Shown: positions 5,132 to 55,511, numbered from the stretch's first letter. The stretch: 64,000 nt of DNA from Pseudomonas phage PhiPA3 (HQ630627.1); one strand, 5' to 3'. The notes: a model not told the origin generated them from the sequence alone. Made by a program: numbers and translations.

Positions 5132-5164
5132 CAATCCTATGTTACGTAATTGATGGTGAATACC

Positions 5165-6700
5165 ATGTTTGAATTATTGCTAGGTGCTAGATTAGCTAGA
5201 CCTCCATTGGTTGATAACCGCTTTATCGGAGAAGTAAGTCCTTCTTCGTTTATTACCGCAAGCGCTTTGGCTAGTGCAGTCGGCCTATTAGCTGGAGCAA
5301 ACGTTAATGATGCTATCCCATGGTTACAATTTCGTTTTAATGGCAAGGACTATTACACCCCCAAAAAAGCCATTCGACACACAATTAGCTGGGAAGCATT
5401 AAATTCGGCGAGTCTGATCACTGGGAATAAACTAACCAAAATTGCCTCTAAGTTTTATTCGGTTAGGTTGTTTAAAGGAGCTAGCGTTAATCCGGTAACG
5501 GTTACGAGTGGTTATGACCTGGTACAGTTCCAAGGTTCAGAATGGAACAAATTCATGTACCATATCCACGGCCCTAGCTTCGCTAACCCAAGCAACACAA
5601 TGGCATCTGAACCCCTTGCTGGTGAGTGGGCTCAATACAGTGATGCTGACTTGGGTTTAGGGTATCCCGCTGATGGTGGCGCCGCTACATGGACACAAGA
5701 ACTCTACACCAAATCTGGTGATGCTACTAAGTATGCCGTGTGGCGCGGATACAATGGTGTGTCTTACTGTGGTTATGACGTATCTAACCTGGCGAGTCAG
5801 AGTTATGCTGGATGGCGCCCATTGTTGGAGCAAGTGGCCGATACATTCAAACCGACTGTCAAGACCATCGCTAGTGAAGCGATGGGTAATGGTTGCTGGT
5901 TTGTTTGGAACAACGACATTTATTTCGCTGGCGGTAACGGGTCTCAACAAACCGCAAGGATTATAAAAGTAGATAAGACAACCGGTGCCAGGACGGCTGT
6001 TCCTGTTGGCACGGGGTCTACACCGGCAGCGACATGGTACTGGTCATGTGCAGTTATTGGAGATAAGGTATATTTCTTTGGCGGTCAATCAGCTGCTGGT
6101 TCTGCAAACGCAGCTCAAAATGCCTGTGTGTTCGATATGGTGACACAGGTATGGACCACCCTTGCAAATCTTCCTGAAAAATTATACAGGCCCCGTGTAG
6201 CGGCGATTGGTACTAAACTCTACATCTACGGTGGTGGACTGGTTACTCCTCGCGACACACTGTACGAATATGATCCACAAGGTAACACCTACGTCAAGAA
6301 AGCTCATGGCGGTGAAAACGCATCGGATACAGCTGGACTAGCTGTGACCTCAGACGGTACTTACCTGTATGCCTGTGGTGGTTACTATAATGCCATGTCT
6401 AACAAGCTGAAGCGTTATAACCCAACATCTAATACCTGGGATGTCCTCCAAGCAGCACCTGTAGCCAACTACGAGAATGGTATTGGAATAGCTGGTGACA
6501 TTCTGTTGTCGGTAGGTGGTACTGGGACCAATATGGGACAAAAGGTATACATGTACCTGTTCTCTAAAAATGCGTGGGTGGATACAGGTATAACCCTACC
6601 ACTTTCTTATGCGACGGCGTATTCAACTGTTCTGAATATAGACGGAAAATGGTACGCATTCTCCCAGCAGAATGCATCCCTTGGAGAAATTGGTGGCTGA
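5165..6700 (+). CDS. fibre/adhesin-like protein: conserved N-terminal module + Kelch beta-propeller
   Basis: start moved to ATG 5165 (MFELLLG) by paralogy with 8375 gene (identical 15-nt atgtttgaattattg); N-module ends ...YAGWRPLLEQV; C-terminal Kelch blades IYFAGGNG, VYFFGGQS, LYIYGGGL, LYACGGYY, LLSVGGTG. Confidence 0.6.
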   Translation: MFELLLGARLARPPLVDNRFIGEVSPSSFITASALASAVGLLAGANVNDAIPWLQFRFNGKDYYTPKKAIRHTISWEALNSASLITGNKLTKIASKFYSVRLFKGASVNPVTVTSGYDLVQFQGSEWNKFMYHIHGPSFANPSNTMASEPLAGEWAQYSDADLGLGYPADGGAATWTQELYTKSGDATKYAVWRGYNGVSYCGYDVSNLASQSYAGWRPLLEQVADTFKPTVKTIASEAMGNGCWFVWNNDIYFAGGNGSQQTARIIKVDKTTGARTAVPVGTGSTPAATWYWSCAVIGDKVYFFGGQSAAGSANAAQNACVFDMVTQVWTTLANLPEKLYRPRVAAIGTKLYIYGGGLVTPRDTLYEYDPQGNTYVKKAHGGENASDTAGLAVTSDGTYLYACGGYYNAMSNKLKRYNPTSNTWDVLQAAPVANYENGIGIAGDILLSVGGTGTNMGQKVYMYLFSKNAWVDTGITLPLSYATAYSTVLNIDGKWYAFSQQNASLGEIGG

Positions 6701-6701
6701 T

Positions 6702-7337
6702 ATGATGGAATCAATATTGGGGACCATTGCGTCACCAGGTGACAACTTAGTACCAGGTCCCCAAGCTGTCGTAGCTGGCGACACCACCTATGGATATTAC
6801 GGGGAATTCTCTGGTGGCCTTCCGCAACCACAAGCATTGTGTGATCTAGTGAATGCCACTGAAGGCGGCTTACTGGTTACGTCAACGACATGGTTGAAGT
6901 TCTGCGATGGCGGTAAGATCTACTTCATGACCAAGGTTCCGATTAGGAATAACATGCGGTGGTCTGAGCTGGACGCCAAAGGCCTCGTTACCGGTAAACA
7001 AATTACAATCGGCAAGCATACGTACATCTGTCGTATCATGACCGGCATTGCAGATAAGGCCGCTGGCACAGCGGGTGGAGAATGGAACCGCTGGATGTAT
7101 CCATTGTGTACTACCCGACCCAGTGGCCCAGTTTGGGCTAACTTCACAGTAACGCAATTGGGCGTCACATCGACCACTAATGGTGGTGGTGCTAACTGGG
7201 TACAAGAAGAACAAACCTCTGCTCCTGCTTATCACTACTACCGGGGATTTACGGGTATTGCAGTGGTGGGTAAAGAGGTAAGCAATTCGAACATCGGCAA
7301 CTACGGCTGGCGTCCAATATTGGAACTTGTAAACTGA
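6702..7337 (+). CDS. fibre/adhesin-like paralog (N-terminal module only)
   Basis: ATG 6702 overlaps upstream TGA (ctgATATG); MMESILG...PGPQAVVAGD...GWRPILELVN matches N-module of neighbours. Confidence 0.6.
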   Translation: MMESILGTIASPGDNLVPGPQAVVAGDTTYGYYGEFSGGLPQPQALCDLVNATEGGLLVTSTTWLKFCDGGKIYFMTKVPIRNNMRWSELDAKGLVTGKQITIGKHTYICRIMTGIADKAAGTAGGEWNRWMYPLCTTRPSGPVWANFTVTQLGVTSTTNGGGANWVQEEQTSAPAYHYYRGFTGIAVVGKEVSNSNIGNYGWRPILELVN

Positions 7338-7347
7338 GGAGAGAGAA

Positions 7348-8019
7348 ATGTTGGAACTAATGCTCTCTTTGGGCAAACCTATATCTATCGTTGAAGGCGA
7401 CAACGGCCCAGGTCCCACTACTTTAGTCGCTGGTACTTCCCTTGCGGGGTATTTTGGTCTGGTACCCTCCGCCAGTTTAATTGGTGGTGATGCGCTTGCT
7501 ACACTGACTGGCATGACTGCTGGTACTTTACAGAACGACACTACCCCGTGGATGAAATTTGCATACAACAACAAAGCATTGTTCATTGCACAGAAGTCTA
7601 TTCGGTATGGCATGTCGTGGGACAGCTTAAACGCAGCAGCGGTGGCTACACCAGGTAAGACGATCACCATTGGTAACTATCGCTATAAGTGTCGTCTGCT
7701 GTTGATTGCCCCGGCTGACTCAGGTAACTCTAACTCCACGTTACCTGGACGGGAATGGTCTAACCTTATTTACAACGTCTGTACGGCTGGACCCTCTACC
7801 AAGGGTTGGGCCGCATTTACTACTGCCGACCTCGGTATTGGCGGTAGCTTCAATGGTCGATATAACTGGGGTCAAGAATCCGGTACAGCAACGTCAGGTG
7901 CTGGTCGAGCAGGCGTGGGTTACACCACAATTAACAAACTCGACTTCAATGCGTCTGGTAATACCGGTACGCACATGGGATGGAGACCATGCTTGGAACT
8001 GGTTGGTAAAATAGCATAA
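7348..8019 (+). CDS. fibre/adhesin-like paralog (N-terminal module only)
   Basis: RBS GAGGAGAGAGAAATG; MLELMLSLG...GPGPTTLVAGT...HMGWRPCLELVG; paralogous to 5165, 6702 and 8375 genes. Confidence 0.6.
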   Translation: MLELMLSLGKPISIVEGDNGPGPTTLVAGTSLAGYFGLVPSASLIGGDALATLTGMTAGTLQNDTTPWMKFAYNNKALFIAQKSIRYGMSWDSLNAAAVATPGKTITIGNYRYKCRLLLIAPADSGNSNSTLPGREWSNLIYNVCTAGPSTKGWAAFTTADLGIGGSFNGRYNWGQESGTATSGAGRAGVGYTTINKLDFNASGNTGTHMGWRPCLELVGKIA

Positions 8020-8273
8020 CGACATAAAGCCCTCCCCAAAGGGAGGGCCATTATGCTGTCTAGAAGTAACGATCGGTCGTCATGAGTAAATTCAATATTC
8101 ATATTAAGAATCTTAGAGACATCATCACTTAATGATCTAAAATTATTAATATCTATTTTTTGATTATCTAGTTTATCCCGAATTTTTATTAGATGTTCTT
8201 CTATCAATGGACCTAAGTCCCGCTTGACATTAACATCCAATACCTCATTAGAGATTTTTATCGTATGTGGCAT
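7920..8273 (-). CDS. doubtful small ORF in AT-rich island
   Basis: ATG at 8273 inside AT-rich segment, but reading frame runs through the 8028-8057 hairpin and into the 3' end of the 7348 gene; only the first ~65 codons look gene-like. Confidence 0.2.
   Translation of the reverse strand: MPHTIKISNEVLDVNVKRDLGPLIEEHLIKIRDKLDNQKIDINNFRSLSDDVSKILNMNIEFTHDDRSLLLDSIMALPLGRALCRYAILPTSSKHGLHPMCVPVLPDALKSSLLIVV
8028..8057 (+). terminator. hairpin GCCCTCCCC-AAA-GGGAGGGC + ATTATGCTG box
   Basis: same hairpin+TTATGC architecture as 5104. Confidence 0.55.
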
Positions 8274-8374
8274 TTTATATCTCTACTAGTATTAATTTGC
8301 AATCATAAAGATATGGCTGTGTTGTATAGAATTCAATCTTACGCATGACGTATTATAAAAGAGAGGCACACAAA

Positions 8375-9889
8375 ATGTTTGAATTATTGTTGTCTTCTGG
8401 ACTAACAAATACCCCTATATATGCTGATCCTTATCCAGGTCCTAAAACACTAATAGCCGGAACAAGGGAATTGGGTTTATATGGTGAAACGTCGTCATCT
8501 GAATTATTTGGATATGACGATGCTGCTAAATTAGTTAATATGACATTTGGTACAGTTATTAATGAAGGGCAACCATGGTTAAAATTTTCCAATAACCATA
8601 TTACCTGCTACATTCCAAAAATGCCTGTACGTAAATCTATACAGAAATCACGTCTAAATAGTGCTGGTTTACGTAATGGTGATTATGAAGTTAGATTTAT
8701 GGGTAATATCTATAAATTTGGTTTATTAACAATGGTTGGTGCCGCATCTGAATGGCAAAGGTTATTATACAATGTCCATGTGTCTAATCTTAACGGAGCA
8801 AACTGGCCATATAAATTTACTGATAATGAATTAGGTATAAACCAAGCTGTTGCTGGTGGTATAAGTACTGATGGTACAACTAACTGGGGAAGAGATGCGG
8901 GTGCTAACCCATCTATTGACCAAATATATCGCGGCTATTATGCAATTGATGTAACTAGTGCATCTAGTAGTGAAACTGGTGCTGTTACGCAAGGATGGCG
9001 TCCAGTTATTTATGCAAGTGGCACGTATCCATTTGTTAAGAACAATGTTATTAAAATTGCTAATTTTGAAACAGATACCGAAATGGTAGCAGGTGCACAG
9101 ATTGGTAATTTGGTTTATTACTATGGCGGCAAAAATACAGCTAACTCTAACTTACGTATTTTAAATTTAGATACAGGTAAGTTAACAGTATTACAACCTA
9201 ATGGAACCCCTATAGCTGTTAAGCAATGTTCGGCAACAGCATTTAATGGGAAAGTATATTTTTATGGTGGCGAAAGTTCTACCGCTAATGTACTTACTAA
9301 AGACATGCAGTGTTATGACCCAGCTACTAATACATGGGAAATAAAATCACCAGGTACTATCACATGTCGTTATGCACGCTCCACTAGTCTTAACGGTTTA
9401 ATTTATATAATGGGTGCTGCCGATAATAATGCTACTAGTAATCGTGGATTCACATTGATTTATAATCCAGTTACTGATGCATATACCAGTGGAACACCAT
9501 TTAATGATACCGGTACTTATACACAAGACTATTCAGTAGGTGTGTATAATAATAGTGTATGTGTTATAGGTGGTATGGTTGGGACTGGTGTCAACACTGG
9601 CATTATCTCTTATAATCAGACTAACAATAATTGGTCTAAACCAATAACCACGGGTATACCTCTTGGTTCAGCAATTAATATACGACCAACTGGTGAACTG
9701 TATGTGATTGCAGGTGAGAACCAAAATAATGCACCAATTAAGTATTATGAGCCACGTTTATCACGTTGGATAAATTTAGGTAGTTTAGAAAATGGTCTGA
9801 TAGATTCTGGTTTTGCTAATACGTTTAATAACGCTGGTAAGTTATATGTTCTAAATGGTAATCAAGATTCAAAATACCAAGTTAGTTAA
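8375..9889 (+). CDS. fibre/adhesin-like protein with Kelch beta-propeller, AT-rich divergent copy
   Basis: RBS GAGAGG then ATG 8375 (MFELLLSSG); N-module ...AVTQGWRPVIY; Kelch blades VYYYGGKN, VYFYGGES, IYIMGAAD, VCVIGGMV, LYVIAGEN, LYVLNGNQ; codon usage A/T-rich unlike 5165 paralog. Confidence 0.6.
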   Translation: MFELLLSSGLTNTPIYADPYPGPKTLIAGTRELGLYGETSSSELFGYDDAAKLVNMTFGTVINEGQPWLKFSNNHITCYIPKMPVRKSIQKSRLNSAGLRNGDYEVRFMGNIYKFGLLTMVGAASEWQRLLYNVHVSNLNGANWPYKFTDNELGINQAVAGGISTDGTTNWGRDAGANPSIDQIYRGYYAIDVTSASSSETGAVTQGWRPVIYASGTYPFVKNNVIKIANFETDTEMVAGAQIGNLVYYYGGKNTANSNLRILNLDTGKLTVLQPNGTPIAVKQCSATAFNGKVYFYGGESSTANVLTKDMQCYDPATNTWEIKSPGTITCRYARSTSLNGLIYIMGAADNNATSNRGFTLIYNPVTDAYTSGTPFNDTGTYTQDYSVGVYNNSVCVIGGMVGTGVNTGIISYNQTNNNWSKPITTGIPLGSAINIRPTGELYVIAGENQNNAPIKYYEPRLSRWINLGSLENGLIDSGFANTFNNAGKLYVLNGNQDSKYQVS

Positions 9890-9897
9890 CGAAATAA

Positions 9898-9925
9898 ACC
9901 CTCCCATTATGGGAGGGTTTTATGT
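9898..9925 (+). terminator. hairpin ACCCTCCC-ATTA-TGGGAGGGT + TTTATGTC; sits between convergent genes (bidirectional terminator candidate)
   Basis: inverted repeat directly after 9889 stop and 12 nt from stop of minus-strand 9937 gene. Confidence 0.55.
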
Positions 9926-9936
9926 CAATGATTATT

Positions 9937-10305
9937 TTAGTAACCCTCATTCAACAGATCGGATAATGCTCTAGCTTGAGAAATATCAGTGGAAGCAAAT
10001 ACGTCAGAAAGATAATAATCATGATCTTTTGCATTCTGACGTAATTCATTCATTAGTTGTTTATTGGATACAGCCCAAATTCTCCATAAGTCTTTATAGT
10101 CCTCATACTTAGGATTATACCCATCTAATGGAGGTTTACCTTTCCCTGCTTTCCAATTATTGGAATGTATTCTGTATCCTTTACAGTCTAATTGCCAAGC
10201 TTCCTCAATCGTTCGTCCATCCGGTAGCCGAGCAAACAGGGCAGAGAATCGTTTGTCGCCAACGGAGGAACATTCGTATCCTCCGCGACGCTTCCACCGA
10301 TACAT
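9937..10305 (-). CDS. hypothetical 122-aa protein, compositionally chimeric
   Basis: ATG overlaps stop of polymerase exon 2 (TAATG coupling); 5' half GC-normal, 3' half AT-rich. Confidence 0.5.
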   Translation of the reverse strand: MYRWKRRGGYECSSVGDKRFSALFARLPDGRTIEEAWQLDCKGYRIHSNNWKAGKGKPPLDGYNPKYEDYKDLWRIWAVSNKQLMNELRQNAKDHDYYLSDVFASTDISQARALSDLLNEGY

Positions 10306-10541
10306 TACTTTGGGGGTTGAGTTTCCTTGTGTTTTAGGTAAGCTGCCAGCATGTTATCCAGTTTGGCACCTTTCATGATCTTCTGTGCAATTTCGATACC
10401 GTTGACTCGACCCCCTGTCAGGTTCACACCCACTTCACGACGATCATGTTCAGAGATGTCTTTCATTGCCGAGAACTCCATGACGGTAGTCTCACGAGCA
10501 ATGTTCAGAATCTGACTCACGTTCGGATACGTACTTACAAT
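10305..10541 (-). CDS. family-B-like DNA polymerase, exon 2 (78 codons, carries second half of motif A: IVSTYPNVSQILNIARETT)
   Basis: open frame downstream of group I intron; STYPNVSQILNIARETT matches pol-B motif A region SLYPSIIRQVNISPET; ends after only 78 codons. Confidence 0.6.
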   Translation of the reverse strand: MVSTYPNVSQILNIARETTVMEFSAMKDISEHDRREVGVNLTGGRVNGIEIAQKIMKGAKLDNMLAAYLKHKETQPPK

Positions 10542-10885
10542 CCATACCTTCGATAGAGTTCGTTATGCTCTACCCGCGTTTACACGCTGCTCCAGGCTTT
10601 CCCTGGATGTGGAGACTATATCACCATCCTTCTCTTTCGAGGATCGGATGCTTCCTATTTCCACCCACTTGGATGTACTCCCTTACGGGATAGTCGTTGA
10701 ACGTTCTTCTCAGAGAGAAGCTTCGCTGCGGATTGCCCAATACATGTGTCTTTTACCATACCCAGTGAGTTAGACTGGCCATCTAGTATATCGCTATCTA
10801 GACTTGGTGCACATGTCTCTAAGGATTTCCCCGTCAATTAAAGAAGTTTGCATCAAGTGTTCCAACTTGATGGGACTAATATTTA
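10542..10885 (-). mobile_element. group I intron (ORF-less) in DNA polymerase gene
   Basis: minus-strand RNA has R-like GUUCAACGACUAUCC and S-like GAUAUAGUCUCC elements (P7 GACUAU/AUAGUC); exon ends in U, intron ends GGUAUGG (G); exon stop codon UAA is first intron triplet; splicing gives ADLD|IVSTYP. Confidence 0.7.
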
Positions 10886-12709
10886 ATCCAGATCAGCCAC
10901 GTGCGTAAACAAAAGTGTGTTGTAGTCGGGTAAGTCTTTGACACACTTCAGTCCGTTGGGTCCAGCCATGTACGAAGGCAGGGTAACGATCCAGGAATCG
11001 TGGCCAACAACATAGCTATCAAGATCATGAACCATCTGATCAGAGCTTGAACCAATTACACAGGGTTCAGGCCGCTTGAGATACCAGAAGTGCATGTCGT
11101 CGCACAGACGTTTCGGGTTAGAACTAAAGTTCTTGTAGTCCGAAGATTTCGAGAACAGAGTAATAGACGAAGCCAGGTCATTAATCTTTTCATCGAGTTG
11201 TTCCAGTCGAATGGAGTCGATGATGTTGTAAAGACCGTACCGGACTTTGTGGTTCTTCTGCATCTCAATGTGCCATTCGATACCTCCCAAGTAGTCAGTT
11301 TCAGCGAACTTCAGTTTACCAAAGTTCAGGCGCATCCCCACACCAAACCCAGGATGTACGTTGACACCCCAGACCAGCGAATCAACTTCTTCCCAGTGTT
11401 CTTCTCGTTCGACCTTTTCCTCACGGCGGTACTCGACTTGAACCCTCGGATCTTCCGGATCAATACCTTCTTGTAGCAGCTTCTCCTGAGCTGCGGTATA
11501 AACAGGGACATCGTTGTACGTGACGTCTACCTTATCCTTGCTCGGATCGTTGACCGACCAATATGGGTGGGCACCACTACGTTCAGCGATGGCTTTACCC
11601 ATCTTCTTCATCCAGCTGTTGAATTCCTCTTCAGTCTGAACAGTTTCCTGTTCATCCATGGAGAGTTCTTTCTTCAGGATGGCATCGAGGGCATAACTGG
11701 ATTCTTTACCTTTGGCCAATCGAGTTACACGATACGTGGCCATGGAGTCAATGCACTGGAACGACGCAGGTGCAGTAATCCAATGCCATTGGTCTTCTGG
11801 ACCTTTGGACTTGGTTACACCCGATGCCGTAGTGGTCATCGCTTGGTCTTGACGGTAATGGAAATACCGATAGTTCGGAGGAACTTGAGGATCACTGAAT
11901 ACGTTCTTCGGGTCAATGCCGTAGTTTTCCAGTGTGGTCAAGATTCGACTCATGTCGAAGTCGATATTCCAGAACGCGAAGAAGTCAGGCTTCCACTTGT
12001 GCAAACGACGCATGCAGTTGATGATGATATCAGCAGGCGAATTTACTACCTCAATTTCAATATTGAGATTACGTGCTTTTTTCAGAGTCACCAATTCTGG
12101 AATGCGTTCTAATTCGGCGAAGGTTTCGGCAACTGGGTCATCCAGATCTTTCACCCAATGCTTCAGATATGCCAGATACACGTTTTCCTTGTGTGTAACC
12201 GACATGCAGATAATCTGTCCCTCGTTCTCTTCTTCGTACACGTTGGTCTCGATGTCGCCACCGGCTACCGTGTTACGGGAAATAAGTTCCGGGTATTGCT
12301 CCCGGTAGTCGTTTTTGAGACAGCAGACTGAGCTTACGTCCGAACCGTACAGATAAGGGCTACGGCTCAATTGGCGCATACGTGGGTTAGGACCCATTGA
12401 GTAATCGCCTAACAACTTAGCGATCATACGTGGCATCTCCAGTTGAGTACAGGTGTACTTCTGGAGGTTACGTTCAAATTCGTAATCTTTCTTTTCTTTA
12501 TGATTTTGTCTTCCCTTCTGTGTAATCCAGAAGGGACGTTTGTAGTCTTCAACGACCCGAATACGTGGGATACGACGTTTGTCTTTAAGGTGAATGATTT
12601 CTTTGACTACGTGTGCATCATGCCTACGGCCAGTTTGGTCAGTCACATAAGTGATGTGTTTGGCTTCAATACCAACAACATCTTCTTTTGTAAATTGTAG
12701 GTCGGACAT
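10886..12709 (-). CDS. family-B-like DNA polymerase, exon 1 (3'-5' exonuclease domain to first half of motif A)
   Basis: Exo I GGDIETN, Exo II FAFWNIDFDMSRIL, Exo III YGLYNIIDSIRLEQLDEKI (like T4 YNIIDVESVQAIDKI); ends ...HVADLD. Confidence 0.65.
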
Positions 12710-12821: not shown

Positions 12822-14066
12822 ATGAACATGAAACCCACTCTTTCCATGGAAATGCTTGCCATGGGAGCGAAGTCCAAGATCGGTGAGATCACTGAGGACT
12901 TCATTATTAAAGTCCGTGAGAAAGAACGCCTCGGTGTCCGTGTCGACGTCGATACGTTGAAGAAATACTGTGAGGACTTGAAGGCTGAAACTGGGATCAC
13001 TTATAGTTTCAAGCTTATCCTTTCGGATATCCCTGATGCAGGCGTGTACCACAAGGTTATCTTCATGGGTCACGCGGGTACTTGGTACTACACTGACCCC
13101 ATCAACAAAGTCACTGCTACTAGCAAGACTGCCATCGACATGGTCACTGAAATCGACCTGAAAAATGTCAAGGTTAAAGGTGGTGCCGCAGATGATTTGA
13201 TCTTCGAGTTCAACGTCTCCATGGGTATCTTGGGTGAGAAGCTAGGTTTCACTGTGCGTGAAGCTGCCGCTGTCATGATTCACGAAATTGGCCACACGTT
13301 TAACACGTTCATGTACATGGGTGACTACGTTTGGTTGAACTATTACCTGACTGATGGGATCGAGATCCTGCAAGGTAAGAAGGTCAACAAATACAAGTTA
13401 CAGATTCTGGATGAAACCTGGCTACTGGAAAATATTCCTGAAGCCATGCGTGAAGAATTCGTGAACGGTCGCAACGACGACGCCACTGTCCGTAAAGCTA
13501 TTCTATCTGCTTGGAAGAAAGCACCCCGTCACCATCTGACCAACAACCCCACCACGGCTATGCGTCGTGAAGAACAAATGGCTGATATGTTTGCCAGTCG
13601 TCTGGGTTATGGCCGTGATCTGGTTACAGGCCTGCACAAGATGGACAGGTTCTTCGGTGTTACTGGTACCAACTTCTGGCTGGGTCAGACCATCTCCCTG
13701 CTGTTTATGATTACATTTGCTCCACTCACTGCTTTGGCAATCTTGTACGCTGATTCTCCCGATGAGTACAACTTCGCTGCCCGTTACGACAACCCGCTCG
13801 AACGGTTTACCAAGATGCGCCGGGATATCATCGCACAAATGAAACGTGGCGCTTATCCGAAAGCGGAAGTTGAGCGTGATGTTAAAGCGATTGACGAATG
13901 TCTTAAAGACTATTCAAAGAACCGTAGTGTTTTCACAGCTCTGTTAGAATTCTTCCGTCCCCAATTGCGTCGTGAAGCTCAGTATACTCGACATGAGGAA
14001 AACTTAGAAGCTCTCGCGAACAATGATCTGTTCCTTCAAGCCTTCCGCCTCCAATCTAAGGTATAA
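12822..14066 (+). CDS. HExxH zinc-metallopeptidase-like protein
   Basis: VMIHEIGHTFN (HExxH) plus hydrophobic stretch; track start used. Confidence 0.45.
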   Translation: MNMKPTLSMEMLAMGAKSKIGEITEDFIIKVREKERLGVRVDVDTLKKYCEDLKAETGITYSFKLILSDIPDAGVYHKVIFMGHAGTWYYTDPINKVTATSKTAIDMVTEIDLKNVKVKGGAADDLIFEFNVSMGILGEKLGFTVREAAAVMIHEIGHTFNTFMYMGDYVWLNYYLTDGIEILQGKKVNKYKLQILDETWLLENIPEAMREEFVNGRNDDATVRKAILSAWKKAPRHHLTNNPTTAMRREEQMADMFASRLGYGRDLVTGLHKMDRFFGVTGTNFWLGQTISLLFMITFAPLTALAILYADSPDEYNFAARYDNPLERFTKMRRDIIAQMKRGAYPKAEVERDVKAIDECLKDYSKNRSVFTALLEFFRPQLRREAQYTRHEENLEALANNDLFLQAFRLQSKV

Positions 14067-52185: not shown

Positions 52186-52542
52186 TTAATTAGACCAAGC
52201 GTCATCGTCCATACCACCGATAATGCTACCCGGAACAATTTTGAGCGAGTAGTCTTCTTCTTTATCGATGTCCCATGGGATAATGCCACACGAACTGAAC
52301 GGCAGAAGAACATATTGGTCTTCTTCAGACGTCACAGTGTTCCGGTGCTTACCCCGTTGGATGGCGAGATACGATTTGCCTTTCACTTTGATGATGTGGT
52401 GGAACAGTTCTAGGTCAGGTTCCTGACCCAGTCGACGGCAACCGTCATAATAGCCTTTGTTGGCTACAACCTTCACGAAGTCTTCGGTGTTCTCCCGCAT
52501 GAGCTGGAGGGCATCAGAGCCGAGCTGGTGAGGACTGATAAA
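52186..52542 (-). CDS. DnaB-family replicative helicase, exon 2 (C-terminal 118 aa)
   Basis: FISPHQLGS aligns with DnaB VVALSQLNR (H3); EPDLELFHHII...LAIQRGKHRNTVT aligns with EQDADLIMFIYRDE...IIGKQRNGPIGTV (H4). Confidence 0.6.
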   Translation of the reverse strand, partial: FISPHQLGSDALQLMRENTEDFVKVVANKGYYDGCRRLGQEPDLELFHHIIKVKGKSYLAIQRGKHRNTVTSEEDQYVLLPFSSCGIIPWDIDKEEDYSLKIVPGSIIGGMDDDAWSN

Positions 52543-54344
52543 CGTGATACCTCTCGATGTGTTCAGTAAGGTTCGTTACACCTTACCCGCGCCATTATGC
52601 GCAGCTCCAGGCTTTCCCTGGATGTCCAGACTATATCTTCACCCTCGGTTTCCCGATAGGGTGCTTCCCACTTCGAGTTCACTTGAACTCTACTCCCCAC
52701 TACGGGATAGTCGTTGAACCTTCTCCGTGCCTTTCGGTTTAGGAGCTTGGCTGCTGATTGTCCAATTTCTACACTTGTTAAACCTTCATAGACTCCTTTC
52801 GGGTCTATTGTGGTAGTAGAACTCTGAAGGAGTTTCCAGCAATTCAGGAAGTACTCGTAAAGCATTACGGCTTTACGGCCCTAAATAAGTAACCCTTAGT
52901 TTCCTTATTAGTGCTCAGATTTAATCGAATTGTTTTCTCGTTTAGACCGGTTAGACGAGCTGCTTCTTTAATAGAAGCAACCTCAGTTATAACACCGGTA
53001 TTCACGCAGGTAACCAGAATGGCTTTAGCTTGTATTGGCTTGTCGATATACGCCGAATTATCGTACTTATTCGAATCCGTGCGGATTATCCAACGCTTAG
53101 CGTAGATGTATTTCAATCCACGACTTAGGTCGACTTGCAACTCCGCTTTAGATCTCCCACAGTGATTCGCTATCTCCTGTAAAGTAGCGAAGACATGGAG
53201 AGTATTCGTTTCTAGATCACTTACGTAGTAAGGTCCAGACAGATTATTCCTACTGTAATGAATTTCACAGTGCGGAACATGCTCTTTAAAACGAATGACG
53301 AAGTTGTCGATGGTTTCGAACCGATATGGTATTCCATACGCTGTCGCAATCTGTTTTACACGATTGAACTTCCGGCTCTGTCCAGTCCGCGTATCGAAAA
53401 CCGTTATGGTGAATATCGATTTACCAACTTTAAAATCGTTTATATCAACTGTTTCGTAATGCCATGGTGTTAAGTCATCCATGGTTTTTATTTCATACCG
53501 CTTGCCCCAAAGATAACCAGGCAGTTTAGTTTGAAAACTTACAGTTGAGTTACCTACACCAATACCGAGACTTCTGTTCATCTCGCTAATGGACCTGTAC
53601 GCAGTAACTTCTCCAGTTAGGACATCCCTAACCTTCGTACCAATAGGTGTTCCATTAAGACCGACTTCCAATGCATGCTGTGCATTTTCCGAAGCATCAC
53701 ACCATTCTAGGTTAGATACGTCGTTATTGGTCTTAACTCCATCAATATGGTTAACGAGCGGTCTTTTTACGAAACATTCGTTTGGAACCCATGCCAAAGC
53801 TACTAACCGATGAAATTTTACGGTACGATTGCAATTTCGATCGGGTACTCTGATATAACACGTGTAGTAACCTTTATCATCGAGTTTCACATCCGTGATA
53901 ATCGAATTCGTTTTGGTATCTAGCACATGCCCATTGGTATCAATAGCGTATCTTGGGTAGTTTGGTATATGCCTGAACCCATCGCAGTAGTAAATCGGTT
54001 CTGCGAATGTCATTATCTTTCCGCACCTTATTCTCAAAAGCGTGTTGTCCACGTCTTTGAAAATTATTTTGTCAAGGTGTTGGGATAGATTGGGAATGTC
54101 TTCACATTCGTACCAAGCAAGTAGACTGAGCCACTCGACTGTGACTGTATACTTTTTACCAAATAGAACGATATTAACTAATCCATTCTCTTCCGGTAGG
54201 GAAACATGTTTCCCCAATCGGTCAAATATTTGACCGTTTAAATCAATTCGGTATTCTGAACTACCAGGAATCTTTTTAATCACAGCCACACCCCAAGTTA
54301 AAAAATCAACTATAGGATATCTGTAATTAAAGGTAGGTAATTTA
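52543..54344 (-). mobile_element. group I intron in DnaB-like helicase gene, carrying HNH homing-endonuclease ORF
   Basis: core 52543-52870 homologous to intron at 10542-10885 (GUUCAACGACUAUCCCGUA, GAUAUAGUCU, CAGGGAAAGCCUGGAGC, GUAACGAAC); 5' exon ends CCU| with UAA as first intron triplet (same as intron 1); 3' end ...GGUAUCACG|; spliced protein ...NYTTP|FISPHQLGS aligns with DnaB ELNVPVVALSQLNR. Confidence 0.65.
52865..54289 (-). CDS. intron-encoded HNH homing endonuclease
   Basis: HRLVALAWVPN...VNHIDGVKTNNDVSNLEWCDASENAQHA (HNH H-N-H); GTG start in track; lies 5' of intron core. Confidence 0.7.
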   Translation of the reverse strand: MAVIKKIPGSSEYRIDLNGQIFDRLGKHVSLPEENGLVNIVLFGKKYTVTVEWLSLLAWYECEDIPNLSQHLDKIIFKDVDNTLLRIRCGKIMTFAEPIYYCDGFRHIPNYPRYAIDTNGHVLDTKTNSIITDVKLDDKGYYTCYIRVPDRNCNRTVKFHRLVALAWVPNECFVKRPLVNHIDGVKTNNDVSNLEWCDASENAQHALEVGLNGTPIGTKVRDVLTGEVTAYRSISEMNRSLGIGVGNSTVSFQTKLPGYLWGKRYEIKTMDDLTPWHYETVDINDFKVGKSIFTITVFDTRTGQSRKFNRVKQIATAYGIPYRFETIDNFVIRFKEHVPHCEIHYSRNNLSGPYYVSDLETNTLHVFATLQEIANHCGRSKAELQVDLSRGLKYIYAKRWIIRTDSNKYDNSAYIDKPIQAKAILVTCVNTGVITEVASIKEAARLTGLNEKTIRLNLSTNKETKGYLFRAVKP

Positions 54345-55511
54345 AGGAGTGGTATAGTTCCTCATGCGACGGAACAGCAGACGAATATCATCACCTGCTA
54401 CTTTCGCATCCAGACCAGTCTTTGGTAGCATGTTCAGGTAGTCAACCATCAGCATCTGGATTTCGTAACCCTGGGACTGGAGACCATCAAGGTAGTTGGT
54501 GAAACCACCAATGGTAAATTCAGTCGGGTCAAAACGGATCATCTTAACGTTGAAACCGTTCTCTTGCAGACGTGCACAGACATAAGCCGCAGCTTCTCGT
54601 TTGTCGATGTCAGCAACAATGATCTCTTCACCCGTTTCATTCTCACGGATATACTTGTAAATAGTTAGCAAGTTATCAGAGATTTCGTTTTCCAACGTAA
54701 CAAACAGCAACAGAGGCTTCTTCGTCTTGTCACGCATGAACGGACGGTTAAACAGAGCGATGTGCGAGAACAGCAACATTAGCATGTATGACTTGAAGTT
54801 GTGTTGCAGAGCCGCAGTGGTGATAAACTCGCCTCGACGAAATGCCCCCAAGCTACCCAGGATACGGTTAAATCCTTTCCAACCTGTTTTGAATGCACCG
54901 TCAGCAGACAGAGTAGTCTGTACCTGCTCAAAGAAATCTTCTACTGCTTCAGGCTCACTGAAGTCCAAGCAACCCATTTCAGCTGGGTGTCTACTTTCAG
55001 CACGCGCTTTGACATACGGATCGAGCTTAGCGCCCATCTCGTTAATAGCACCAGCGATATCGCCACTACCGCCACGGTTGAAAAGAAGCTTCTGCGAATA
55101 CTCTCGAACGATCTGCTTGATCTTTTCATCATTGAGGTGTGCGTTCAGCGCACTGCGACGAGAGTTGATAGCCCGCATAATGGACATCCCGTCAGGGAAA
55201 TCCTCTTTTACGCCATTGACTACCGCTTCGTACAGATAGTTTTCTTCCCGGCAACTCACTTGTACGGCTTGTAGAACTTCCGCCAAACTCGGGAAATCGT
55301 GCTTTGCTTTACTGTTCAGATCACCGACGAGCTTACGTAGTTCTAAGAACGTTTGCCGACCATGGTCGTGGTCAACAGTGGTATCACGGACTTCCAGTGT
55401 ATTGATGATTTCCGATATCAGTTCAGTTGATGGTGCAGCAGGAGAATCTTCACGGTGTTCCAAGCACAGCAGGGTAACACACTGTACGAGCAGTTGTTTC
55501 GGGGAGGACAT
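54345..55511 (-). CDS. DnaB-family replicative helicase, exon 1
   Basis: Walker B/H2 YEIQMLMVDYLNMLP (DnaB IDYLQLM); Walker A region reads AALQHNFKS (atypical); ends ...RMRNYTTP immediately before intron. Confidence 0.6.

What the first reader, a model, noticed from the sequence alone, without database searches (positions are those of the whole stretch)
9937..10541. DNA polymerase reading frame stops 78 codons after motif A; motifs B and C absent and a chimeric gene is coupled to it
Exon 2 ends ...LKHKETQPPK with TAA overlapping the ATG (TAATG) of a 122-codon gene whose 5' half is GC-normal and 3' half AT-rich. No KxxxNSxYG or YGDTDS motif was found on this strand before the plus-strand fibre genes begin. 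Either the polymerase is naturally split, with the palm/thumb part encoded elsewhere, or the AT-rich insertion truncated it.
Basis: inference. Interest (0 to 1): 0.75.

Follow-up and report, generated by a model that had tools for sequence, protein, structure and literature searches.

The report
Split polymerase with frameshift-fused extra domain
The "truncated" DNA polymerase is the normal N-terminal half of the two-piece polymerase that all nucleus-forming jumbo phages have (already known), but the small gene behind it seems to be joined to that half by a conserved ribosomal frameshift site that nobody appears to have described.

Summary
The window is Pseudomonas phage PhiPA3. The minus-strand gene is the orthologue of phiKZ gp82 (DNAP-N), interrupted in motif A by a 344-nt group I intron. 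It ends 78 codons after the motif A aspartate, and TAATG overlaps a 122-codon ORF.

The early stop is not a truncation. Chimallivirus PolB is naturally split, as the phiKZ gp82+gp50 cryo-EM structure shows. PhiPA3's second half, with motifs B and C, is gp047 and lies outside the window. That part is already known.

The ORF's AT-rich 3' part belongs to a cassette of about 2 kb recombined in from a phiKZ-type phage.

The new observation concerns how the ORF is expressed. It lies in the -1 frame directly behind an invariant C_CCA_AAG-stop. In 13 related genomes and contigs the heptamer is kept although the preceding residue varies among eight amino acids. The codon at the ATG position is ATG, GTG, ATA, GTA, ACA or GAA, yet the N-terminus stays under purifying selection. 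This indicates programmed -1 frameshifting that makes an 809-aa DNAP-N fusion.

The parts
10886..12709 (-). DNAP-N exon 1. It has 608 codons covering the N-terminal domain, the 3'-5' exonuclease (DIE at residue 152) and the first palm segment. It ends with the motif A aspartate D608.
   Evidence: 63-73% identity to phiKZ gp82; coordinates and motifs.
10542..10885 (-). ORF-less group I intron of 344 nt, inserted between D608 and I609 of motif A (DLD|IVSTYPN). Its first codon is the in-frame TAA.
   Evidence: Rfam RF00028, 71.7 bits, E 2e-17, covering 10590-10895. The exon junction matches the uninterrupted phiKZ gp82. The intron is homologous to the HNH-containing intron at the same site in phage HPP-Temi.
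10308..10541 (-). DNAP-N exon 2. It has 78 codons (IVSTYPNVSQILNIARET...KHKETQPPK) covering the rest of motif A and the start of the palm-insertion domain.
   Evidence: 73% identity to phiKZ gp82 residues 393-631 across the junction.
10308..10314 (-). C_CCA_AAG, a -1 slippery heptamer in the phase of the DNAP-N frame, immediately followed by the stop TAA (10305..10307).
   Evidence: The heptamer is invariant in 13 related genomes and contigs, while the preceding residue is P, N, S, A, V, D, T or L. It is absent from chimalliviruses that lack the downstream ORF. C_CCA_AAG is described as highly shift-prone in E. coli (PMC5009743).
9937..10305 (-). 122-codon ORF in the -1 frame (PhiPA3 'protein 084', PHROG 9995). 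It is a compact domain with a NADAR-like predicted fold. The predicted trans-frame product, DNAP-N + V + this ORF, is 809 aa.
9896..9920 (-). Intrinsic terminator hairpin between the convergent NADAR-like ORF and the gp83-like gene.
   Evidence: conserved with phiKZ.
8083..10141 (.). AT-rich cassette (GC about 0.35) imported from a Phikzvirus-type donor. It contains the 3' two-thirds of the NADAR-like ORF, the terminator, the gp83 orthologue (8345..9889, +) and a roughly 195-nt remnant of the donor's gp84 5' end (within 7920..8273, -).
   Evidence: 80-92% nt identity to phiKZ inside the block against 60-76% outside it. gp83 is 87% identical at protein level. The gp84 remnant is shown, while the resident gp84 orthologue is only 37% identical. 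The mosaic pattern is shown.

Best explanation
The gene is the N-terminal subunit (DNAP-N, the phiKZ gp82 orthologue) of the naturally two-subunit family B replicative polymerase of chimalliviruses. In PhiPA3 a self-splicing group I intron sits exactly in motif A. The C-terminal subunit, with motifs B and C and the fingers and thumb, is gp047 elsewhere in the genome.

The 122-codon ORF behind DNAP-N is not primarily a coupled independent gene. Ribosomes that decode the last two DNAP-N codons (CCA AAG), with the stop codon next in the A site, occasionally slip back one base on C_CCA_AAG. They then continue in the -1 frame. This gives a minor 809-aa form of DNAP-N with a C-terminal NADAR-like domain, alongside the major 686-aa form.

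PhiPA3 happens to have ATG at the junction, so some free 122-aa protein may also be made by termination-reinitiation.

By inference, the appended domain is an ADP-ribose or N-glycoside hydrolase. Tethering it to the polymerase would bring it to replicating single-stranded DNA, and into the phage nucleus, where it could remove base ADP-ribosylation made by DarT-type defences.

The AT-rich 3' part of the ORF and the neighbouring fibre gene came in by recombination with a phiKZ-type phage.

Shown here: orthology, the intron, the natural stop, the existence of DNAP-C, heptamer conservation, non-conservation of the start codon, purifying selection, and the recombinant origin. Inferred: that frameshifting really happens and how efficiently, the enzymatic activity, and the biological role.

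Confidence by component: natural split about 0.97; intron about 0.95; recombinant cassette about 0.9; frameshift in this clade about 0.75; hydrolase function about 0.5.
For: Split polymerase:
- 63-73% identity to phiKZ gp82.
- The phiKZ gp82+gp50 1:1 complex has been solved and is active, with the split inside the palm insertion (PMC13648687). The split was first predicted in PMC3201878.
- PhiPA3 DNAP-C is P0390, which carries motifs B and C.
- The same end point is seen in 270 chimallivirus records.

Intron.

Frameshift:
- The ORF is in the -1 frame, and C_CCA_AAG is in phase directly before the stop in PhiPA3, phiKZ, PS119XW, HPP-Temi, Phabio and the metagenomic contigs L009, L013, L019, L021 and L022. 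In the 201phi2-1 group it lies one codon before the stop.
- The codon at the ATG position is ATG, GTG, ATA, GTA, ACA or GAA.
- Gene callers therefore produce truncated 95-100-aa ORFs or leave the region unannotated.
- Codons 2-27 of the ORFs without a start codon are under purifying selection, for example pS 0.97 and pN 0.11 between phiKZ and PS119XW.
- Eight different residues precede P-K, and every one uses a C-ending codon. Given the amino acids and local codon usage, the chance of spelling the heptamer is 0.01-0.14 per lineage.
- Noxifer has lost CCCAAAG but has A_AAA_AAG in phase, with the -1 frame open into the ORF.
- Chimalliviruses without the ORF lack both heptamers.
- C_CCA_AAG is a recognised, efficient bacterial -1 site.

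Domain:
- pLDDT 97.
- Invariant E34, Q38, K42 and D101.
- Family members are fused to DUF4326, DUF488-N3a, a SLOG domain, RNase H and giant multi-domain proteins.
- NADAR proteins and macrodomains are known phage anti-DarT factors, including the nuclear AdfM of PhiPA3 and phiKZ.
Against: - There is no experimental evidence for the trans-frame protein. No paper or GenBank record found mentions it.
- No conserved stimulatory RNA structure was found at the usual 5-9 nt spacing. The hairpin in the PhiPA3 clade starts about 17 nt downstream and has no covariation support.
- About half of the lineages do have a start codon at or near the junction (PhiPA3, L019, L009, the 201phi2-1 group).
- In Psa21, RVTF4 and D6 the ORF is in the +1 frame with a TTG or GTG start and no heptamer, so a fusion is not obligatory.
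- No natural in-frame DNAP-N fusion appeared among the 150 best of 903 family representatives.
Confidence: 0.72

Rival explanations
1. The 122-codon ORF is an ordinary separate gene expressed only by translational coupling (termination-reinitiation at UAAUG). The heptamer would be a coincidence of a conserved Pro-Lys C-terminus.
For: PhiPA3 and L019 have ATG, and L009 has GTG, overlapping the stop. The family is mostly free-standing proteins of 120-130 aa in other phages. Psa21, RVTF4 and D6 have TTG or GTG starts in another frame.
Against: phiKZ, PS119XW and L013 have ATA, Phabio has GTA, HPP-Temi and L022 have ACA, and L021 has GAA at that position. None of these has an in-frame start before about codon 27, yet the N-terminus is under purifying selection. 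The third base of the codon before CCA is always C although eight different amino acids occupy that position. There is no Shine-Dalgarno sequence within 5-12 nt of the PhiPA3 ATG.
Confidence: 0.15
2. The AT-rich insertion cut off the 3' half of a formerly continuous polymerase gene, leaving a defective or pseudogenised polymerase.
For: A real AT-rich foreign cassette begins about 165 nt downstream of the stop.
Against: The stop position is shared by phiKZ, Pawinskivirus, Phabio, 201phi2-1 and distant chimalliviruses that lack the cassette. A separate DNAP-C gene exists in PhiPA3. The two-subunit enzyme of phiKZ is active.
Confidence: 0.01
3. A sequencing error or unrecognised frameshift hides a continuous polymerase that carries motifs B and C immediately downstream.
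For: None beyond the unusual gene end.
Against: The downstream -1 frame encodes a NADAR-like domain, not polymerase sequence. No motif B or C occurs in any frame of the window. The same arrangement is found in more than 15 independently sequenced genomes and contigs.
Confidence: 0.01
4. In lineages without a start codon the ORF is a decaying remnant, or is expressed only as an N-terminally truncated protein from an internal ATG, as annotated (for example the 38-aa PHIKZ082.1).
For: Annotators-100-aa products.
Against: The ORFs are intact and full-length in every lineage. pN/pS is 0.04-0.4 for codons 2-27. The N-terminal strands and the invariant G16, D17, S21 and A22 are part of the confidently predicted fold.
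Confidence: 0.05

Closest known systems
phiKZ split family B DNA polymerase DNAP-N (gp82) and DNAP-C (gp50) (Basu et al. 2026 preprint, PMC13648687; predicted by Kazlauskas & Venclovas 2011, PMC3201878)
   Same: The window gene is the orthologue, at 63-73% identity. It has the same domain content, the same motif A aspartate and the same end point about 76-78 residues after it. The partner subunit is encoded about 36 genes away.
   Different: PhiPA3 carries a group I intron in motif A, which phiKZ lacks. The published work used the 638-aa annotated gp82 and does not mention the downstream -1 frame ORF or a frameshift.
E. coli dnaX (A_AAA_AAG) and copA (C_CCA_AAG) programmed -1 frameshifting
   Same: A canonical X_XXA_AAG heptamer gives two products from one replication gene (dnaX). 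The heptamer is identical to the copA site.
   Different: In dnaX and copA the shift leads quickly to a stop and a shorter product. Here it bypasses the stop and adds a whole 123-residue domain. No conserved downstream stem-loop or upstream SD-like stimulator was found; the adjacent stop codon is the only conserved context.
Phage anti-DarT factors: AdfN (T4 gp30.3, NADAR) and AdfM (chimallivirus macrodomain, phiKZ gp104 / PhiPA3 gp108)
   Same: These are small phage-encoded hydrolases that remove ADP-ribose from DNA. AdfM acts inside the phage nucleus of these same phages. The 122-aa domain has a NADAR-like predicted fold.
   Different: No detectable sequence or profile similarity to AdfN or YbiA-type NADARs. 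The domain is shorter (122 aa against 150-220 aa). Activity is untested. Attachment to a polymerase subunit is not known for any Adf.
Group I introns in phage DNA polymerase genes (SPO1/SP82, Bastille, LUZ24, Pf-WMP3) and the PhiPA3 gp210 intron in an RNA polymerase gene
   Same: A self-splicing intron sits at a catalytic motif of an essential replication gene. A related copy (HPP-Temi) carries an HNH homing endonuclease.
   Different: The PhiPA3 copy has no ORF. In the papers searched I found no description of this particular intron.

Membership tests
Chimallivirus DNAP-N (phiKZ gp82 family) | Full-length orthology to gp82, with the exonuclease motif and the motif A aspartate | tested here: met
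   BLASTP gives 63% identity over residues 8-380 and 73% over 439-677. DIE is at residue 152 and DLD|IVSTYPN at 606-614 after splicing.
Chimallivirus DNAP-N (phiKZ gp82 family) | The protein ends inside the palm insertion about 76 residues after motif A, and a separate DNAP-C gene carries motifs B and C | tested here: met
   78 codons follow D608. PhiPA3 gp047 (P0390) is 716 aa, 68% identical to gp50, and carries KINNNSYSG and VISDTDS. It is not in the window.
Chimallivirus DNAP-N (phiKZ gp82 family) | Forms a stable 1:1 active complex with DNAP-C | not testable with these tools
   Shown for phiKZ only (PMC13648687).
Group I intron | Match to the covariance model above the curated threshold | tested here: met
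   RF00028, 71.7 bits against a gathering score of 50, with the full-length model matched.
Group I intron | Excision restores an uninterrupted conserved reading frame; U before the 5' splice site and G before the 3' splice site | tested here: met
   The exons join as GAU|...G|AUU and give ADLDIVSTYPNVSQ, matching intron-less phiKZ gp82 (IADLDIVSTYPNVSQ) over the 14 residues around the junction.
Group I intron | Self-splicing activity | not testable with these tools
   Needs RT-PCR or in vitro splicing.
Programmed -1 ribosomal frameshift | X_XXY_YYZ heptamer in the phase of the upstream frame, with the -1 frame open from it into a conserved ORF | tested here: met
   C_CCA_AAG is at 10308..10314. 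The -1 frame is open, and in relatives it is closed by stops only 0-2 codons upstream of the heptamer.
Programmed -1 ribosomal frameshift | The heptamer is conserved at synonymous positions across diverged lineages and co-occurs with the trans-frame ORF | tested here: met
   13 of 13 -1-frame lineages outside Noxifer keep it, with 8 different preceding residues. Noxifer has A_AAA_AAG instead. It is absent from 4 of 4 chimalliviruses without the ORF.
Programmed -1 ribosomal frameshift | The downstream ORF lacks its own initiation codon | tested here: inconclusive
   A start is absent in phiKZ, PS119XW, HPP-Temi, Phabio, L013, L021, L022 and Noxifer. It is present in PhiPA3 itself (ATG), L019, L009 and the 201phi2-1 group.
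Programmed -1 ribosomal frameshift | Stimulatory RNA structure 5-9 nt downstream, or an SD-like element upstream | tested here: not met
   The hairpin starts about 17 nt downstream, is broken in phiKZ, Phabio and L009, and the covariation term is unfavourable. Only the adjacent stop codon is conserved.
Programmed -1 ribosomal frameshift | Trans-frame protein detected | not testable with these tools
   No proteomic or ribosome-profiling data were found.
NADAR superfamily (ADP-ribosyl-base / N-glycoside hydrolases) | NADAR fold | tested here: met
NADAR superfamily (ADP-ribosyl-base / N-glycoside hydrolases) | Sequence or profile similarity to PF08719 / AdfN | tested here: not met
   Pfam on 97 members gave no NADAR hit. 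hmmsearch against PDB sequences gave none. hhalign gave probability 0.15 against T4 gp30.3 and 0.06 against a YbiA-family profile.
NADAR superfamily (ADP-ribosyl-base / N-glycoside hydrolases) | Catalytic Glu and Lys (E..Q..K helix) plus a third acidic residue | tested here: inconclusive
   E34, Q38, K42 and D101 are invariant in 97 sequences, and by eye they resemble the NADAR SxEHxxQxxK motif. Structural equivalence could not be checked.
NADAR superfamily (ADP-ribosyl-base / N-glycoside hydrolases) | Hydrolase activity on ADP-ribosylated guanine or DNA | not testable with these tools
   Needs a biochemical assay.

The most novel reading that the evidence does not exclude
Pseudomonas-infecting chimalliviruses (phiKZ, PhiPA3, Pawinskivirus, Phabio, 201phi2-1, Noxifer and their relatives) use a conserved programmed -1 frameshift at the last two codons of DNAP-N. 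This makes a sub-stoichiometric polymerase isoform carrying a minimal NADAR-like hydrolase. The fusion takes an otherwise free-standing anti-defence enzyme into the phage nucleus and to the replication fork. There it removes DarT-type base ADP-ribosylation from template DNA, making it a polymerase-tethered repair and counter-defence module.
Probability: 0.35. Interest if true: 0.8.

Novelty: new variant of a known kind. Interest (0 to 1): 0.6.

Why it matters
The finding as handed over, a polymerase that stops after motif A, is explained by published work and is not new in itself.

What could matter is the junction behind it. If the frameshift is real, the recently solved phiKZ replicase has a further, so far overlooked isoform of its N-terminal subunit. 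Phage genome annotation also systematically truncates or drops this ORF.

It would add a case in which recoding extends a replicative polymerase subunit with an accessory enzyme. It would also offer a simple answer to how a small acquired protein gets into the phage nucleus, namely by riding on an imported protein. And it would point to a possible second anti-DarT activity (guanine-ADP-ribose) beside the known macrodomain AdfM. This is relevant for the host range of therapeutic jumbo phages.

The imported phiKZ-type cassette also documents recombination between two phage genera that have been used as a model for genetic isolation.

Tried and rejected
- I searched the window for the missing polymerase half. 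tblastn with phiKZ gp50 and regular expressions for motifs A, B and C in six frames found nothing, so it lies outside the window.
- Pfam, NCBIfam and PHROGs on the 122-aa ORF gave only PHROG 9995, of unknown function.
- Sequence routes to NADAR all failed: a profile of 97 homologues against PDB sequences, Pfam on all members at E up to 10, hhalign against T4 gp30.3 and against a 32-sequence YbiA-family profile, and Foldseek against the PDB. afdb50 was not available.
- I looked for an in-frame DNAP-N::domain fusion among 1.84 billion representatives. The 838-aa candidate P0260 is not a polymerase.
- I looked for a conserved frameshift-stimulating RNA structure with RNAfold on each lineage and RNAalifold. 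There is no covariation and the spacing is wrong.
- Transcriptional slippage was rejected because the A-run is only 3 nt long (6 nt in Noxifer).
- A Phe-leader Rfam hit at 9866-10017 is just the terminator hairpin, scoring far below threshold.
- The literature was searched for a phiKZ frameshift, ribosome profiling, and gp82.1 / PHIKZ_p28. Nothing relevant turned up.
- The +1-frame arrangement in Psa21, RVTF4 and D6 remains unexplained. A -2 slip on GAAAAG is conceivable, but a TTG or GTG start is the simpler reading.

Full report
**Identity of the window.** The 122-aa ORF is 100% identical to a protein of Pseudomonas phage PhiPA3 found on a 309,208-bp contig. The nearest records in the phage collection are Pawinskivirus phages at about 80% nucleotide identity, and phiKZ. 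PhiPA3 is a nucleus-forming jumbo phage, a chimallivirus.

**Check of the observation.** On the minus strand, ORF 10883..12709 ends ...LLFTHVADLD followed by TAA.

Rfam finds a group I intron at 10590-10895, scoring 71.7 bits against a gathering score of 50. Splicing GAU|UAA...UGG|AUU removes 344 nt (10542..10885). It joins D608 to IVSTYPNVSQILNIARET.... Over the 14 residues around the junction this differs from the uninterrupted phiKZ gp82 sequence (HIADLDIVSTYPNVSQ) only at the first residue, V for I.

Exon 2 has 78 codons and ends ...KHKETQPPK. Its TAA overlaps the ATG of a 122-codon ORF (10305..9937). That ORF has GC 0.48 in its first 164 nt and 0.35 in the rest.

No motif B or C is present in any frame of the window, and phiKZ gp50 finds no match there.

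**What the polymerase gene is.** The spliced 686-aa product is 63-73% identical over its length to phiKZ gp82.

A 2026 preprint shows that the phiKZ replicase core is a stable 1:1 complex of two subunits (PMC13648687). DNAP-N (gp82, 638 aa) holds the N-terminal domain, the exonuclease, part of the palm and the motif A aspartate D562. DNAP-C (gp50, 731 aa) holds the rest of the palm, the fingers, the thumb and the motif C aspartate D426. The split lies within a palm insertion. The separation into two polypeptides had been predicted in 2011 (PMC3201878).

In phiKZ, 76 residues follow the motif A aspartate; in PhiPA3, 78 do. tblastn with the last 196 residues finds 270 chimallivirus records from hosts including Erwinia, Salmonella, Vibrio, Ralstonia and Serratia. 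In the listed rows the matches end between query residues 158 and 195 of 196, most of them at 186-195.

PhiPA3 encodes the partner as 'protein 047' (P0390, 716 aa, 68% identical to gp50). It contains KINNNSYSG (motif B) and VISDTDS (motif C). So the early stop is the natural, family-wide subunit boundary, and this part of the finding is already known.

**The intron.** phiKZ and PS119XW have no intron at this site.

HPP-Temi has a homologous intron at the same position, carrying a 444-aa HNH endonuclease ORF. PhiPA3's 344 nt align at 79% identity to the 3' part of that intron. The PhiPA3 copy is thus an ORF-less member of a mobile intron family that sits in the catalytic motif. This is typical of phage polymerase introns.

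**The AT-rich half.** In 100-nt bins, the window is 70-76% identical to phiKZ from 10541 down to about 10142, with GC 0.44-0.51. From 10141 down to about 8142 it is 75-92% identical, with GC 0.28-0.45.

- The enclosed gp83 orthologue (8345..9889) is 87% identical in protein to phiKZ gp83.
- At the far end, ORF 7920..8273(-) begins with about 65 residues that are roughly 90% identical to the N-terminus of phiKZ gp84 and then diverges.
- The resident gp84 orthologue (12822..14066) is only 37% identical to phiKZ gp84.
- Within the 122-codon ORF, the first ~125 nt are closest to a metagenomic group (83-95%); only the first ~65 nt are also close to Pawinskivirus (90%, then 58%). The remainder is closest to phiKZ.

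The AT-rich stretch is therefore a cassette of about 2 kb imported from a Phikzvirus-type genome. It comprises the 3' two-thirds of the ORF, the terminator, gp83 and a gp84 stub. One crossover lies inside the ORF. The cassette did not truncate the polymerase.

**The junction.** The ORF lies in the -1 frame relative to DNAP-N. The last two DNAP-N codons and the base before them spell C_CCA_AAG (10308..10314). This is an X_XXY_YYZ heptamer in the correct phase, and the stop codon follows directly.

I compared the junction across these sources:
- phiKZ;
- 201phi2-1, PS119XW, Psa21, Phabio, Noxifer and RVTF4;
- HPP-Temi;
- Viktualia and D6;
- six metagenomic jumbo-phage contigs.

In 13 of them the sequence NNC_CCA_AAG is invariant. 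A stop (TAA, TAG or TGA) follows immediately, or after one codon in two of the three 201phi2-1-group members (201phi2-1, L020). The homologous ORF then continues in the -1 frame.

The residue before Pro-Lys is P, N, S, A, V, D, T or L, always with a C-ending codon. Given the amino acids and each gene's own codon usage, the chance of spelling the heptamer is 0.01-0.14 per lineage. Two further lineages gave no usable estimate because too few upstream codons were available.

The codon occupying the place of PhiPA3's ATG is not conserved as a start:

| Codon | Lineages |
|---|---|
| ATG | PhiPA3, L019 |
| GTG | L009 |
| ATA | phiKZ, PS119XW, L013 |
| GTA | Phabio |
| ACA | HPP-Temi, L022 |
| GAA | L021 |

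In the lineages without a start codon, gene callers give truncated ORFs of 38-100 aa or leave the 366 nt unannotated. Yet codons 2-27 are under clear purifying selection. For example, phiKZ against PS119XW gives pS 0.97 and pN 0.11.

Noxifer lacks CCCAAAG. It has the dnaX-type heptamer A_AAA_AAG in phase 12 codons before its stop, with the -1 frame open into the ORF.

Four chimalliviruses without the ORF (SPN3US, RAY, RSL2, pVa-21) end DNAP-N differently and have neither heptamer.

C_CCA_AAG is listed as highly shift-prone in E. coli (PMC5009743). From memory, it is also the shift site of copA.

Together these data indicate programmed -1 ribosomal frameshifting. It would extend a fraction of DNAP-N by V plus the 122-residue domain, giving 809 aa in PhiPA3.

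**Caveats on the frameshift.**
- About half of the lineages have a usable start codon at or near the junction, PhiPA3 among them, so free protein may also be made.
- Psa21, RVTF4 and D6 have the ORF in the +1 frame with a TTG or GTG start and no heptamer.
- The only downstream hairpin begins about 17 nt after the site and is not supported by covariation.
- I found no proteomic, ribosome-profiling, literature or annotation record of the fusion.

**The added domain.** It belongs to PHROG 9995, of unknown function. It has no Pfam or NCBIfam match.

The family is large. It has 307 clusters at 90% identity, and 903 representatives among 1.84 billion proteins. Members are mostly free-standing proteins of 120-140 aa in phages, for example N4-like Achromobacter phages, Delftia phage RG-2014 and Sphingomonas phage PAU. 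The domain also occurs inside giant proteins of 2000-6000 aa. Fusion partners include DUF4326, DUF488-N3a, a SLOG domain and RNase H.

AlphaFold2 with 97 homologues gives pLDDT 97 and pTM 0.90.

NADARs remove ADP-ribose from guanine in DNA. They are the antitoxins of DarT1, and phage NADAR (AdfN, T4 gp30.3) counters DarTG1 (PMC11543638, PMC11257639). PhiPA3 and phiKZ already carry a nuclear macrodomain, AdfM, that acts against DarT2 (PMC13309987).

E34, Q38, K42 and D101 are invariant in the family. By eye they resemble the NADAR E-x3-Q-x2-K motif plus an acidic residue.

All sequence-based tests were negative, however, and so was Foldseek against the PDB. I therefore describe the domain as NADAR-like in predicted fold and not as a demonstrated NADAR. 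Its activity is an inference.

**Verdict.** The 'naturally split' reading is correct but already published. The 'truncated by insertion' reading is wrong.

The part that deserves follow-up is a conserved -1 frameshift signal. It most likely fuses a NADAR-like domain to the polymerase N-subunit in the Pseudomonas chimallivirus clade. I estimate about 0.75 that frameshifting occurs in this clade. I estimate about 0.5 that the domain is an ADP-ribose or N-glycoside hydrolase. I estimate about 0.35 for the full counter-defence and nuclear-import model.

Noticed in passing
window 52186-55511 (-): A second group I intron (RF00028, 83.1 bits, 52607-52900) interrupts the divergent DnaB-like replicative helicase gene. 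Exon 1 is 54342..55511 and exon 2 about 52186..52500. The intron carries a 474-aa HNH_3 + NUMOD1 homing endonuclease ORF (52865..54289). Two replisome genes of PhiPA3 within this window are therefore intron-containing.
   Followed up: partly
window 7920-9889: A Kelch-repeat fibre or virion gene (8345..9889, likely true start at M11) is 87% identical to phiKZ gp83. A dead 5' stub of the donor's gp84 lies beside it. Most other compared PhiPA3 and phiKZ proteins are 37-73% identical. This is a recent inter-genus recombination between phages that have been used as a model of 'subcellular genetic isolation'.
   Followed up: yes
window 10205-10305 and loci L013, L019, L021, L022 (first ~120 nt of the ORF): The first ~120 nt of the NADAR-like ORF are 87-100% identical (30-nt bins) among PhiPA3 and four metagenomic phages (pS 0-0.3). 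The flanks on both sides are mostly 52-80% identical. The cause could be recent gene conversion or an RNA-level constraint such as a frameshift stimulator or the GGAGGA...UCCUCC hairpin. It is unresolved.
   Followed up: partly
loci L005 (Psa21), L008 (RVTF4), L025 (D6): In the Tepukevirus-like group the NADAR-like ORF overlaps the DNAP-N 3' end by about 20 nt in the +1 frame, begins with TTG or GTG, and has no CCCAAAG. It is unclear whether it is expressed independently or by a -2 slip on GAAAAG.
   Followed up: partly
window 5150-8019 (+): Upstream of the imported gp83 lies a row of paralogous genes (516, 221 and 223 aa). They share an N-terminal M(F/L)ELLL motif, and the first carries Kelch repeats. 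This looks like a tail-fibre or receptor-binding gene array that may be a hotspot for cassette exchange.
   Followed up: no
phiKZ NC_004629.1 79876-80241 (locus L002 5877-6242): In RefSeq phiKZ and in many Phikzvirus GenBank records this 366-nt conserved ORF is either unannotated or represented only by the 38-aa PHIKZ082.1. This is an annotation gap that affects dozens of genomes.
   Followed up: yes
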